From: Octopus vulgaris
Lineage: Eukaryota
Length of the DNA: 64,000 bases
Assembly: GCA_951406725.2 (NCBI GenBank)
Contig: OX597820.1
Coordinates: forward strand, 85,746,001 to 85,810,000
Direction: 5' to 3'
Positions 2,541-39,942 of this stretch are shown here, piece after piece. The translations under genes and the position numbers were made by a program. Position 1 is the stretch's first letter. Every line of letters begins with the position of its first letter. The notes under the pieces were generated by a model. The model had not been told where the DNA came from. It searched no databases and worked only from the letters and a program-made list of their open reading frames with translations.

Positions 2541-2823
2541 ATCTGTTGTGTCTGGGGAGAGTCATTTTCTTTTTGTGCCTTATTATTTAACACACTCACC
2601 GGTTAAATTTCCACTTTTCTTTATTTTTATTGTCCTAAAATTTTCGTTGCCTTTGCAACCTTTTCAATAGTTTTGACTCTATTTGAGAGTCAAAACTATT
2701 TTACCGGTGAGAGTGTTAAATAATAAGGCACAAAAAGGAAATTACTCTCCTCAGACACAACAGAATATGCTTCAACACGCGAACTCATAAAGAATCTTGC
2801 AAACCAAATCCAAAAACGAAATT
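2541..2823 (-). mobile_element. Non-coding fold-back Penelope-type terminus with hammerhead, inserted in mariner
   Basis: 62-bp inverted repeat 2542-2603/2703-2764; 15-bp hairpin 2666-2700; possible TATTAAT target duplication at 2534-2540/2824-2830. Confidence 0.7.
2635..2670 (-). ncRNA. Minimal hammerhead motif, U3-A8 core variant
   Basis: CTA-TTGAAAA-G-GTTGC AAAG GCAAC-GAAA-AT-TT-TAG; palindrome AAAATTTT. Confidence 0.65.
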
Positions 2824-2895
2824 TATTAATTTCAATTTTGAAAAATAAAGAAATATATAAAGAAAGTCATTTATGAGATAACCCAATACATATAT

Positions 2896-3085
2896 CCTTT
2901 TACTATAGGCACAAGGGTTGAAATTTTGGAGGAGGTAGGGCCAGTCGATTACATGACACCAGTACACAACTGGTACTTCATTTATCGACCCCGAACGGAT
3001 GAAAGGTAAAGTCGACCTCGGCGGAATCTATGATCAGAACATAGTGGCAGACGAAATACCTCTAAGCAAACGATTCTGCCAGCCA
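2896..3085 (-). mobile_element. tRNA-derived SINE (family B, Meta-like central domain)
   Basis: Minus strand GCCGAGGTCGACTTTACCTTTCATCCGTTCGGGGTCGATAAATGAAGTACCAG; repeated many times in the window. Confidence 0.8.
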
Positions 3086-4974
3086 TTATGCAAAGGTGTC
3101 GTAAGTTCAAAACGTTTCTTTTTCAGAGAACGAAAACTAGTTTCACCATTCATGGAAAAATCGTCGTACTACGCTTTGACAATTTTTGATATATTGGCAT
3201 CTGAAGCAGCCGGAAATACGATACTTTGATCAAAAGAACCGGCTATTGCATTGCAAGCAAAAATATATATTGAACAAAACGCATTTGGCCAACACACAAT
3301 AGTTTAACATAATAGCAACGAATTTATATATGTGTTTGTATGTGCCTAAATGTGTGTGTGTGTGTATGTATGTATGTATGCATGGATGGATGGGTGGATG
3401 TATGTATGTATGTATCTTTGTATATGCATATATATGTGTCTGTGTGTGCGTGTGTGTGTCTGGGCGCGCGCTGGTTTGTGTGCATGTGTGTGTATATATA
3501 CAGAGAAGTGTGTGTCTGTCAGAGAGAGAGAGAGAGAGAGAGAAAGAGAGAGAGAGAGAGCGAGACTGAGAAAAAGAGAAAGGTTGTACCAACCACGCAT
3601 CAGTGTAATGGTGTTTTTGTATTCCAGGCACTTGATTATGGTGAAGTTACTATAGAACAATGATTCCTAGTACCGACTGCAAGAACTCCCAATTAACTAT
3701 TATTACAGCATAATTGAGGAGTTTCCGGTGCAAGTTCCCAGTATCCATTATTAATTCATTCATCGTCCTGCTTGCACAATATACATTTAAGCAAATGCAC
3801 CGAGTGAGACATCTAAGTAAATAATGAGGATTGGCAACAACAGCCGTCAGTAGACTTTTATAAAAGATAAAAGACTTACTTTTCACTTTATACTGCTTGA
3901 AGGAAACATTATAGAAAATATGTTGACGTATTTACGATCAATTCTATTGACTTACAGTATATTAGTTCATATCTAATGCAGTATATAAAGCAAGTTCCCT
4001 CAATAATTAATAGTGTAATATCTCGCTGACATTAGCATAACTCCTATTTTAGTACATGCGCATGTGTCTTCGTTATTAGGATATGTGTGCATTTGTGAGT
4101 GTTTGTGCATATAAATGTTTTAGTATGTGTGCAAGAATATTTGACCATTTGTCTGTTTCTGTATGCTAAACAAGAATTTCGCGAAAAGAAGACTTTATTA
4201 CTACCAGCACCGAAATGAATGTTATATGGCAGCTAATTTATGCGTGTGTGTATGTTTGTGTGTGGTGCCTCTGTGTGTTTGTGTGCTTTTTTCTCATTCC
4301 TTCGTTCAGCTTATGACCTTAATCAGTAAAAAATTCTTGTCACAGCAACTAGCCAACGAGAATGTCATCAGATTTCCTTACCAAATTGACCCGCAGAAAT
4401 AGATTATGTATTCCTGTGAAGTATAGGGTTACGGTTGTTGATTATATATATTATTCAAGTAAAGGAAATCGTTCCTTGATCCGCTTATAAATGGATGTAA
4501 GCAAGTCTGGAATATTAATAATATCGTTTCACAACAGAGGATTTTGTACAATTCCATTAAGATAAAGTTCGCTGTATCTTATCATATTTTCAGGTGCAGT
4601 AATATAGTGTAATCGAAATTCGAATGGCATAACATTTTTGGATGCTACTAAAGCGCAAATATGCATAACAAGTGATTTCAGACCGTAATAATTTTATCCC
4701 TGGATTCTTAAATAGGAAAAGAACATTCTTCGCTCTGCACTTTGAAAGGAAACCGATGATATCCTGCCTGAGGATGGATCAAAACTTGAATCTCGAGCTC
4801 ACATTTTTCTGTTCATCAAATTCATATTAACAATTATTGTCAATCTGTTTTATATCACAGCCAAGGCATTCTAATATTTCCAATATTCCAAACTGCCTGC
4901 GTCACCCAGAGTTATGCATATAACATATTACACACACACACACACACATTCCGCACTACATACATATATACAAG

Positions 4975-5320
4975 CATATGAGTAGCTACGTGGTAAGAAT
5001 TTGCTTCCCAACTGCATGGTTTCAGGTTCAGTCCCACTGCGTAGCATCTTGGGAAAGAGTATTTTACTATAGCCCAAACACTGAGGGCATTTGCAAGCTG
5101 AAAGTTAAAAGAAGCCCGTTGCATGTGTGTGTGTATGTGTGTGTATATATATGTGTGTATGTATATATATGTGTGTGTGTATGTGTGTGAATGTTTGTGT
5201 ATGAATATATGTCTTTATGTCTGAGTTTCTCACCCACCGCCGCTTGACAAACGATGTTGGTGTCTTTGGGTTCCCGTAAATCTATACAATCACTACCAGG
5301 CTGTAAATAAAGTACTGGTG
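4975..5320 (+). mobile_element. SINE family A, decayed
   Basis: GTGGTAAGAATTTGCTTCCCAAC...GGTTCAGTCCCACTGCG head (A/B-box-like); CGCTTGACAA body. Confidence 0.75.
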
Positions 5321-5968
5321 GCTATGTATGCTCGCATTAGTGTATGTATTTATCTACGCATGTCAAACCAGGCATTATCCTCACACTTCTGGGGAAAAGT
5401 GTTCCACTAATAACTACATAACTTCGTAATCTCTTTGTCATAATAACTAAAAACTTCATAATCTATTTGTTATTCTACACCTTACTTGGGTCTTCTGTGT
5501 CAGCCATTCAAATTTCCTCCGTCATGATGTCGAAAGTGATTTGTCAGATTCTTGAATACAGCTCCGTTCCATTCCCTCTCTCTTTCCCCCCTTTTTTCTC
5601 TTCTCTCTCTCTCTCGTTTTCTCTCACACACACTCATAAATATATTTGTATGTGTGTTTGTGTCAGAAACCAAGGATCGTGGTGTAGGAAGAATGTTAGC
5701 TTCAAGCAAACTGTAGGAAATATAAAAAGCAACTTTCAGGAATAATGGTTGTTTATTAAAGCAGAAGATTGTAGATTTTTTCTGCATCGAAGTATGGTAA
5801 GATGAAAAAAATTAATGTATTATATTTCACGGTCGGAACGGATGGTTGCTAGGTTTAAGAATAGAATACAAGAGGTAAGGATATAGTAGATAATATCTGG
5901 GCTATTTATGGCTCCTTAGCTCTTGTATGTATATATATACGTGTGTGTGTGTGTGTGTGTGTGTGTGT

Positions 5969-6231
5969 GAAGGCGCGTGGCTTAGTGATTAGGGGTATTC
6001 GGCTCATGATCGTAAGGTCGTGAGTTCAATTCCCGGCGGCGCGTTGTGTCCTTGAGCAAGATACTTTATTTCACGTAGCTGGCAAAAATGAGTAGTACCT
6101 GTATTTCAAAAGGCCAGCCTTGTCACACTCTGTGTCACGCTGAATCTCCCGAGAACTATGTTAATGGTACACGTGTTTGTAGAGTGCTCAGCCACTTGCA
6201 CGTTAATTTCACGAGCAAGCTGTTCCGTTGA
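5969..6231 (+). mobile_element. tRNA-derived SINE (family C)
   Basis: TGGCTTAGTGATTAGGG (A box), GAGTTCAATTCCC (B box), GTTGTGTCCTTGAGCAAG; second copy at 36501-36812. Confidence 0.8.
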
Positions 6232-38270: not shown

Positions 38271-38297
38271 TAAAAATAATAATAATAATAATAATAT

Positions 38298-38519
38298 ATT
38301 TCTTTACTACCCACAAGGGGCTAAACACAGAGGGGACAAACAAGGACAGACAAACGGATCAAGTAGATTACTTCGATCCCAGTGCGTTACTGGTACTTAA
38401 TTTATCGACCCCGAAAGGATGAAAAGCAAAGTCGACCTCGGCGGAATTTGAACTCAGAACGTATCGACAGACGAAATACGTCTACGCATTTCACCCGGCG
38501 TGCTAACGATCCTGCCAGT
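38298..38519 (-). mobile_element. SINE family B
   Basis: TTTATCGACCCCGAAAGGATGAAAAGCAAAGTCGACCTCGGCGGAATTTGAACTC; a truncated copy follows at 38627-38751. Confidence 0.85.
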
Positions 38520-38751
38520 TAATAATAATAATAATAATAATAATAATAATAATAATAATAATAATAATAATAATAATAATAATAATAATAATAATAACAA
38601 TGATGATGATGATGGTGATGATGATAACCTTTTCTACTCCAGGCACAAGACCCTAAATTTTGGGAGAAGGGACCAGTCGATTCGATCGACTCCAGTCAGC
38701 AACTGGTACTTAATTTATCAACACCGGAATGATGAAAGACAAAGTCGACCT

Positions 38752-39576
38752 GAAAGAACCGCTCGTGATTGGAAATTTTGACCTCAAAGACGCACCTCGA
38801 TCTGGCCGTCCAGTTGAGTTCGTTGACGAGCGATTAAACCAACTTTTGCACGAAAATTCTCCTCAAACGACAAGGGAACTGGCAGAGAAAAGGGAATGCT
38901 CCCACACTGCTATAGAGAAGCATATTCACTCGATGGGAAAGGTTCAGAAGAATGGAGCATGGGTTCCGCATGCTTTAAGTGACAACAAAAATCAACGAGC
39001 CACAATCTCCGTTGATATGCTTCCTCGTAAAGTGAAACAAGATGTTCATCCGCGTAAAACAATGTTGTGTGACCGGGAAAGAATTATCCATTACGAATTG
39101 TTTGAACAGAAGCAAACGAGCAACGGGGAACTCCATGTTCAACAGATGGAACGACTCAACACGGCTATTCAAGAGAAAATATCTAATCGCCAGCATGAAG
39201 TTATTCTGCTGCACGACAACGCCCGCCCTTATATCGCCAATATGATCAAGGAAACCATTGAAACTCATGACCAAGATGTGCTACCACACCCGCCGTAATC
39301 TCCTGATTTGGCACCAGCGTATTTCTATCTCTTTCAAATGGTATGCGTGGAGTCTCGTTCAATACTGATGCAGAATTGAGAGCTTGGTTGGAACAATTTT
39401 TCGAATCGAAATCGGTTGATTTCTTCCAACTAGGTACTGAAAATCTCGTTGACCGTTGGGAAGAAGTTGGAAACAACAAGAGTGAATACATTATTGATTA
39501 ATTAGTTGTTATTTTTTATTAAACCTTTTTTAAATTTGAATTTAAAAAAGCGGCGGAAACTAACTTGCCAACCCAG
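38752..39576 (+). mobile_element. Mariner transposon remnant
   Basis: GNFDLKDAPRSGRP; GAWVPHALS; LLHDNARPY; LPHPP*SPDLAP; TIR-like end at about 39550-39576; first catalytic Asp region deleted. Confidence 0.92.
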
Positions 39577-39634
39577 TTTATATATATATATATTTAAAAA
39601 AAGGAGATGTCTAACACGAGTTGTGATATATAAA

Positions 39635-39942
39635 AAAGGAAATGAAGAAAATGCTGACAAAATAATTGAAGTAATTTAAGTAATTTAATTAGGTGAAAGT
39701 TCTTTTTACCGGTTGCGCATTTGTTATGCTTATCAAAATATAAAAGAGAGATTAGAGTTCCTTCCTTCTGATTTTTTCCTCTTATCTGGAATAAGAGGAA
39801 AAAATCAGGAAGGAAGGAACTCTAATCTCTCTTTTATATTTTGATAAGCATAACAAATGCGCAACCGGTAAAAAGAACTTTCACCTAATTAAATTACTTA
39901 AATTACTTCAATTATTTTGTCAGCATTTTCTTCATTTCCTTT
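39635..39942. repeat. Near-perfect 308-bp palindrome of a Penelope-type terminus
   Basis: Arms 39635-39785/39791-39942 with one indel seen and a 5-nt loop CTGGA. Confidence 0.92.
39839..39872 (+). ncRNA. Hammerhead motif, U3-A8 variant with GAAA>GCAA; mirror copy at 39707-39736 (-)
   Basis: TT-TTGATAA-GCAT AACAA ATGC-GCAA-CCGG-TA-AA. Confidence 0.6.

What the first reader, a model, noticed from the sequence alone, without database searches (positions are those of the whole stretch)
2541..39942. Recurring architecture: inverted tail + truncated body + hammerhead + tail
Seen at 2541-2823, 21191-23471, 29952-30582, 30634-31165, 35410-35905 and 39635-39942. These look like MITEs, but the inverted arms copy the sequence at or downstream of a hammerhead. 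Established: inverted pseudo-LTR copies occur in Penelope insertions. Inference: they are either heavily truncated insertions or self-propagating ribozyme-bearing non-autonomous elements similar to retrozymes.
Basis: partly seen in the sequence, partly recalled or inferred. Interest (0 to 1): 0.75.

Follow-up and report, generated by a model that had tools for sequence, protein, structure and literature searches.

The report
Two-armed Penelope and retrozyme insertions
The six MITE-looking hairpins are head-to-head insertions of Penelope-type jumping genes and of two small ribozyme-bearing repeats that likely ride on them; the pattern is known, but each insertion has one short and one long end and both halves usually carry the same sequence variant, which suggests that one RNA is likely copied twice from the two sides of a DNA cut.

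Summary
All six inverted structures are real and carry hammerhead motifs (three canonical cores, three variant or broken). They belong to six separate families. Three are ends of Penelope-like elements with RT/GIY-YIG frames (units 1, 2, 6), one probably is (unit 4), and two are about 460-nt tandem non-LTR retrozymes (units 3, 5). The 'inverted tail' is a second 5'-truncated copy joined head to head. Junctions differ between copies (46 of 46 in unit 1's family), so the hairpins are built anew at each insertion and do not spread as units. Inverted copies with a one-sided tail, and retrozymes as Penelope passengers, are published. Added here: 118 of 123 classifiable pairs have one short and one long end; arms share subfamily alleles but not CpG decay; either arm can be the longer; and two families have fixed 5' ends that look like transcript starts. 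Together these favour one RNA copied twice from a staggered cut. That model is inferred, untested, and not found in my literature searches. Earlier scan notes reached the same reading on other DNA of this genome and others. Interest 0.4.

The parts
2541..2823 (.). Unit 1: head-to-head stub of a Penelope-like family, inserted in the end of a mariner-like remnant; 7-bp TSD TATTAAT
   Evidence: long family copies carry RT and GIY-YIG-like frames upstream
2541..2680 (-). Unit 1 short-end arm: starts at the family's fixed 5' end (AGAGTC); holds a minimal U3-A8 hammerhead (core 2667-2661, predicted cut after 2638)
2685..2823 (+). Unit 1 long-end arm: extra G, fixed 5' end, internal deletion that removes the hammerhead, then 59-nt one-sided tail (about 2766-2823)
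21189..21261 (-). Unit 2 long-end arm: 42-nt inverted 3' end plus about 32-nt tail
21262..22696 (+). Unit 2 5'-truncated Penelope ORF: RT (RVT_1, E 1.5e-6) and GIY-YIG (E 2.2e-5), with a frameshift between them
22697..23470 (+). Unit 2 3' UTR and pLTR with U3-A8 hammerhead motif at 23375-23412 (one stem II pair broken in this copy); short end in (TA)n
29952..30215 (-). Unit 3 long-end arm: partial monomer running across the monomer boundary to the long end (tail about 123-126 nt)
30219..30588 (+). Unit 3 short-end arm of a 458-460-nt tandem retrozyme monomer; canonical type I hammerhead 30407-30453, predicted cut after 30447
30634..30971 (-). Unit 4 short-end arm (the longer arm), with a decayed second hammerhead
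30991..31318 (+). Unit 4 long-end arm: internally deleted 3' end, hammerhead 31040-31087 (palindromic stem III), about 153-nt tail 31166-31318
35410..35789 (-). Unit 5 short-end arm of an about 465-nt tandem retrozyme monomer; type I hammerhead 35631-35540 with long stem II, predicted cut between 35546 and 35545
35792..36007 (+).
39590..39788 (-). Unit 6 long-end arm: pLTR leader from the fixed 5' end to the 36-nt tail; hammerhead-like motif about 39738-39705
39790..39945 (+). Unit 6 short-end arm; hammerhead-like motif 39839-39872 (UUGAUAA/GCAA); predicted retained 56-nt intron 39868-39923 after an ATG at 39857
   Evidence: full-length parent with RT and GIY-YIG in L262

Best explanation
The six units are separate head-to-head insertions of Penelope-like elements and of two tandem retrozymes, and each was likely made by one Penelope RT-endonuclease complex that cut AT-rich DNA on both strands and primed two cDNAs on the same RNA, one from a short-end site and one from a long-end site 34-153 nt further on, the two cDNAs then being joined at their far ends. 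Shown: family identity, unique junctions, two fixed ends per family, one of each per insertion, shared alleles between arms, either arm longer. Inferred: staggered double nick (about 12-bp TSD in family 1), a single RNA molecule, joining by microhomology, and Penelope enzymes acting in trans on the retrozymes. In families 1 and 6 most stubs start at one fixed point. This is likely the capped transcript start, so the uniform MITE-like palindromes would be complete copies of the short RNA leader between the transcript start and the internal priming sites, not random truncations. The hammerhead cut does not appear to define either end.
For: Ends: 118 of 145 de-duplicated head-to-head pairs are long+short, 1 long+long, 4 short+short, 22 have an unclassified end. 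In the subset not picked for a tail: 67 long+short, 2 short+short, 14 unclassified. Unpaired ends are 69 long to 85 short, so about half would be mixed by chance. All six window units are long+short. Junctions: 46 of 46 distinct in family 1; in family 6, 22 palindromes give 17 junction types plus one unresolved, and the two commonest (3 each) are mirror images around the imperfect palindrome TC(A/T)GA. Same template: arm-to-arm distance within an insertion is below that between insertions in five families (permutation p 0.0005-0.011). Non-CpG diagnostic sites are discordant in 3 of 36 and 5 of 37 (16.8 and 16.5 expected; family 1), 1 of 23, 0 of 23 and 0 of 24 (family 6), 0 of 8 and 1 of 9 (family 5). 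CpG sites are discordant at the chance rate (11 of 37 twice, about 10 expected), which argues against later conversion. Arm length: short-end arm longer in 40, long-end arm longer in 14, equal in 41, 1 unresolved. ORFs: units 2 and 6 RT and GIY-YIG by Pfam; family 1 RT E 0.0015. Fixed 5' ends: 28 of 30 family 6 loci start within about 8 nt of AGATAAG, 30 nt after a TATAAG and inside TCAGAT. In family 1, 13 of 21 stubs starting at AGAGTC have an extra G where long copies have C (p 7e-6). Literature: two RT start sites flanking the tail, both strands cut and extended, predicted dimer (PMC11167929); untemplated G attributed to the cap (PMC3287187).
Against: One RNA cannot be told from two RNAs of one highly active source locus. 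Family 4 shows no arm similarity excess (0.132 vs 0.131, p 0.56), and family 1 has some discordant diagnostic sites. Samples are the best-scoring 25-30 loci per search, not random; 29 of the 40 'short arm longer' cases come from a query with that shape, and two family 2 rows (window, L263) were mis-scored. No transcript start, cleavage, circle or splicing was observed: only contigs were available and none showed the predicted intron removed. Some extra Gs may be borrowed from the partner arm, and the G is not enriched in family 6. No Penelope partner was identified for units 3 and 5, and unit 4's endonuclease remnant got no database support.
Confidence: 0.62

Rival explanations
1. Same families, but the second arm is made by fold-back: the first cDNA (or an antisense RNA) self-primes at a palindrome and copies itself, and the tail is a by-product of endonuclease resolution.
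For: Explains shared alleles and the one-sided tail. Self-priming on an antisense template was proposed in PMC3846280 and endonuclease resolution of the tail in PMC8557442. 41 of 96 pairs have arms equal within 15 nt, and 14 have the long-end arm longer.
Against: Simple fold-back needs the short-end arm to lie inside the tailed arm. It reaches further 5' in 40 of 96 pairs (11 outside the shape-biased query), including window unit 2 (2.2 kb against 42 nt by direct reading).
Confidence: 0.12
2. Two RNA molecules from the same active source locus are copied by an asymmetric enzyme dimer, one at each site.
For: Fits every count here, including the occasional discordant diagnostic site in family 1.
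Against: Gives no reason for the near-strict one-short-one-long rule; several subfamilies coexist in young families, yet arms almost never mix (family 6: 1 discordant call in 70 site-pairs).
Confidence: 0.2
3. The hairpins are self-propagating units (palindromic retrozymes or MITEs of a long-TIR DNA transposon) that amplify whole.
For: Whole-unit hits dominate the searches for units 1 and 6 (40 of 40 scored); family 6 has a sharp length mode of 359-367 nt in 19 of 28; family 1 has an 11-12-bp modal TSD.
Against: Junctions differ; alleles do not sort by arm; ends are asymmetric; the same arms occur singly, in tandem and as 3' ends of RT/GIY-YIG elements.
Confidence: 0.04

Closest known systems
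Endonuclease-positive Penelope-like element insertions with an inverted 5'-truncated copy and a one-sided 30-40-bp tail (PMC8557442 passages incl. Fig. 2 legend, section 11; PMC3846280 passages; PMC2377424 passages)
   Same: RT + C-terminal GIY-YIG, hammerhead in the pLTR, head-to-head inverted copy, tail on one end, AT/(TA)n targets, variable TSD, start codon and probable retained intron in the pLTR
   Different: Tails here reach 59, about 91, about 125 and about 153 nt; 'often at one end' is here a counted near-strict rule across six families; allele sharing between arms and fixed leader-length palindromes were not in the passages I read
PAc (Poseidon of Anolis) in vitro mechanism (PMC11167929, parts 1-2 of 4 read)
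   Same: Two internal RT start sites bounding the tail; both DNA strands cut and extended; hammerhead cleavage not needed
   Different: The parts read do not tie the two sites to opposite target strands or to the inverted copy; ends here finish in short AT-rich matches to the target, whereas PAc primed without homology
Metazoan non-LTR retrozymes (PMC7229834 passages; bioRxiv 10.64898/2026.07.22.740005 parts 1-3 of 5)
   Same: Units 3 and 5: non-coding tandem monomers, type I hammerhead in each, 32-33% GC, over 60% of bases paired in the predicted fold, many dispersed young copies
   Different: Monomers of 458-465 nt exceed the 170-400-nt circles quoted but fall in the 51-972-bp range of the preprint; no pLTR homology found; circles and cleavage untested; the insertions carry the Penelope two-end footprint
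Minimal and U3-A8 hammerheads of PLEs (PMC4209133, parts 1-2 of 4)
   Same: U3-A8 core, unpaired base before stem II, short or palindromic stem III, pairs on opposite strands 100-700 bp apart
   Different: Family 6 has GCAA fixed in place of GAAA, which I did not see described in the parts read

Membership tests
EN+ Penelope-like element (units 2, 6) | RT followed by GIY-YIG endonuclease in the element | tested here: met
   Pfam RVT_1 and GIY-YIG in the window (unit 2) and in L262 (family 6); contiguity with the stub
EN+ Penelope-like element (unit 1) | RT followed by GIY-YIG endonuclease in the element | tested here: met
   Two long copies colinear over 1.5 kb; RT E 0.0015, below Pfam's cut-off; a YIGET-type endonuclease motif read by eye, no Pfam hit; support is weaker than for units 2 and 6
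EN+ Penelope-like element (unit 4) | RT and GIY-YIG in the element | tested here: inconclusive
   Two long copies end in a stop-ridden frame resembling a PLE endonuclease C-terminus by eye, Hydra-like; no Pfam or homolog hit; none of 20 further loci reached it
EN+ Penelope-like element | Hammerhead motif in the pLTR | tested here: met
   canonical in unit 4, U3-A8 in units 1 and 2, deviant (GCAA) in unit 6
EN+ Penelope-like element | Tandem or inverted 5'-truncated copies with a one-sided tail | tested here: met
EN+ Penelope-like element | Clade placement by RT phylogeny | not tested
   No tree built; clade names rest on motif impression
Non-LTR retrozyme (units 3, 5) | Short non-coding head-to-tail monomers, each with a type I hammerhead | tested here: met
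   458-460-nt and about 465-nt monomers in tandem in several loci; no RT or endonuclease hit inside any of the 60 loci; one hit lay outside the element
Non-LTR retrozyme (units 3, 5) | Self-cleavage and circular RNA | not testable with these tools
   No holder on record as RNA and only contigs were listed; a circle junction equals the tandem junction in sequence
Non-LTR retrozyme (units 3, 5) | Homology to a PLE pLTR (reported for 24 of 57 Xenopus families) | tested here: inconclusive
   No significant match to the four PLE ends tested; the other PLE families of the genome were not tested
MITE / DNA-transposon derivative | Symmetric terminal inverted repeats and shared internal structure | tested here: not met
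   Asymmetric ends in 118 of 123 classifiable pairs; unique junctions

The most novel reading that the evidence does not exclude
Penelope-type integration is an obligate two-primer reaction: one RNA is copied twice from two fixed sites, one per nicked strand, by autonomous elements and passenger retrozymes alike. When priming happens on the first pLTR of a capped transcript it mass-produces uniform palindromes that mimic MITEs and record the element's transcription start in the genome. This would explain the long-unexplained inverted copy and one-sided tail by a single mechanism.
Probability: 0.5. Interest if true: 0.65.

Novelty: new member of a known kind. Interest (0 to 1): 0.4.

Why it matters
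How Penelope-like elements form their inverted copies and tails is still called open in the papers read (PMC8557442, PMC11167929). The counts here turn it into a sharp test that an existing in vitro system could run. Practically, many palindromic 'MITEs' or miRNA-like hairpins in such genomes may be Penelope by-products and should be annotated so; unit 6 scored E 4e-12 against a miRNA model. The retrozyme units add genomic footprints for a mobilisation route that has mostly been argued from co-occurrence and homology.

Tried and rejected
The repeat finder on the whole window was swamped by microsatellites. Rfam showed only hairpin matches to miRNA models in the 150 rows shown. Minimum-energy folds of the six motifs were uninformative (z +0.8 to -2.2). 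A first end tally failed for three families because anchors were not found and was redone. Hammerhead cut as the source of 5' ends: in family 3 only 2 of 42 inner ends lie within 10 nt of the cut (hand count, 26 distinct loci; about 2 expected), so rejected. Runs: no RNA holder listed; contigs of four runs laid on L262 showed no spliced form and cannot show starts; neither is evidence either way. Unit 4 ORF: tblastn on 64 and then 20 loci, Pfam and one homolog search gave nothing linked; the Atlas gave no answer. The Lunse et al. paper on small PLE hammerheads (recalled) is not held, so the GCAA variant could not be checked there. Literature searches found no paper stating the one-short-one-long rule, allele sharing or leader-length palindromes; most subscription papers and Repbase reports are outside the library, no supplements were read, and the bioRxiv supplements are closed and may bear on this. 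Genome-wide copy numbers were not obtained: first-look candidates (874-3846 for the unit queries) are not counts.
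Full report
Setting. The window lies in a 2.8-Gb animal assembly (G000:C7), 35% GC and rich in microsatellites. Its only long Penelope frames are at 21202-22696.

Observation. Self-comparison confirms inverted arms at all six places. Hammerhead motifs were read by hand and their cores are conserved across 21-90 family copies. Units 3, 4 and 5 are canonical type I motifs with short or palindromic stem III. Units 1 and 2 have the U3-A8 covariation described for PLE ribozymes (PMC4209133). Unit 6 also has GCAA for GAAA in its whole family. My descriptor recovered units 1 and 3 and one unlisted site, against 0.4 hits per shuffle, and missed the other four. 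The units are six families; only units 2 and 6 share a short end segment.

What each unit is. Twelve searches of the genome gave 17-30 loci each. Unit 2 is a 5'-truncated Penelope with RT and GIY-YIG; 18 of 30 family loci reach the ORF. Unit 6 is the pLTR of a young Penelope family, with a near full-length parent in L262. There an ATG in the motif's stem II joins the long frame if a 56-nt GT-AG intron is removed (predicted only, but D. virilis Penelope has a pLTR intron, PMC2377424). Unit 1's long copies run upstream through a CA-rich UTR into endonuclease-like, thumb-like and RT frames. Unit 4's long copies have over 1.2 kb of UTR and a decayed endonuclease-like frame without database support. 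Units 3 and 5 are circularly permuted tandem monomers of 458-460 and about 465 nt with no coding parent among 60 loci, matching non-LTR retrozymes (PMC7229834; bioRxiv 10.64898/2026.07.22.740005).

Unit or independent events. Junctions are distinct in 46 of 46 family 1 pairs and scattered in families 2-5. Family 6 looks fixed (19 of 28 inserts 359-367 nt), but 22 palindromes give 17 junction types plus one unresolved, and the two commonest are mirror images. Alleles do not sort by arm. The hairpin is therefore rebuilt at each insertion.

The two ends. Every family has two 3' ends, 34-153 nt apart. Of 145 de-duplicated head-to-head pairs, 118 are long+short, 1 long+long, 4 short+short and 22 have an unclassified end. 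Unpaired ends are 69 long and 85 short. Leaving out loci found with tail-bearing queries (but keeping family 3 loci ranked on the direct arm) gives 67 long+short, 2 short+short and 14 unclassified. All six window units follow the rule. A tail 'often only at one end' and an adjacent inverted copy are published (PMC8557442; PMC3846280), and in vitro the tail lies between two RT start sites (PMC11167929). Family 1, which inserts outside (TA)n, has TSDs of 12 bp in 19 and 11 bp in 6 of 46, none found in 8; lengths may include bases shared with the element's ends.

One template. Arms within an insertion are closer than arms between insertions in families 1, 2, 3, 5 and 6, but not in the old family 4. 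Non-CpG subfamily sites are concordant far above chance while CpG sites decay independently, which fits a shared template rather than later conversion. Monomers and arms inside one family 3 insertion are 98.4-99.6% alike, against 95.9-96.7% between insertions. The short-end arm reaches further 5' in 40 of 96 pairs, the long-end arm in 14, they are equal in 41 and 1 is unresolved. Of the 40, 29 come from a shape-biased query, and two family 2 rows were mis-scored. Simple fold-back of the tailed arm cannot give the first class.

Fixed 5' ends. In family 6, 28 of 30 loci begin within about 8 nt of one point, 30 nt after a TATA-like box, with CCAAT boxes upstream (promoter motifs from my own knowledge). 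In family 1, of 35 arms, 7 run upstream, 21 start exactly at AGAGTC (preceded by G 13, A 5, T 3, C 0; the template has C in the 25 long loci) and 7 start elsewhere (p 7e-6). Untemplated G has been attributed to cap copying for L1 and SVA (PMC3287187). Family 2 has a looser cluster of starts. The hammerhead cut marks neither end, and many family 3 arms read through it, in line with uncleaved template use in vitro.

Mechanism. Best supported: a staggered double nick, two primers on one RNA at two sites, two cDNAs of independent length joined head to head; in families 1 and 6 both often run off the capped 5' end. The product is shown; the steps are inferred. Two RNAs from one locus remain possible. 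No RNA evidence was obtained.

Novelty. The architecture, the ribozymes and retrozymes as Penelope passengers are known. I did not find the counted rule, allele sharing or leader-length palindromes, within the library's limits and with no supplements read. Earlier scan notes describe the same reading on other DNA; they are unchecked and not independent support. Verdict: new members of known kinds with a useful, testable mechanistic clue; interest 0.4.

Noticed in passing
window 17790-17930 (-): A further, unlisted hammerhead with long stem II (core 17913, predicted cut after 17841) ending in (TA)n; looks like a solo Penelope-type 3' end.
   Followed up: partly
window 17296-17330 (+): CTGATGA...CGAAAC with a possible short stem II; not passed by my descriptor.
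   Followed up: no
window 24542-24885: About 345-nt old imperfect palindrome (71%), next to (CA)n/(TA)n; its left end recurs at 50447-50499; no clear hammerhead seen.
   Followed up: no
window 2070-2880, 38714-39298, 52942-53470: Mariner-like remnants (Transposase_1, E 9e-9 at 38714); unit 1 sits inside the end of the first.
   Followed up: partly
window 37566-37760: Tandem of about 31-nt units with an internal inversion that scores as a miRNA-like hairpin.
   Followed up: no
window 29952-31318: Units 3 and 4 abut across one (TA)n tract at 30588-30634: two families inserted into the same microsatellite.
   Followed up: partly
L166, L239, L242, L252: Junctions with several short re-starts of the element's 5' end, suggesting repeated template jumps onto the RNA end before joining.
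   Followed up: no
L262:1638-1710; window 39857-39923: Family 6 start codon lies in stem II of the deviant hammerhead and the predicted splice donor overlaps stem III, so cleavage, splicing and translation signals would share about 15 nt.
   Followed up: partly
L169 and L170: Two loci 47 kb apart on C26, inverted and 99.5% alike over 3.2 kb including flanks: a local duplication or assembly duplicate.
   Followed up: no
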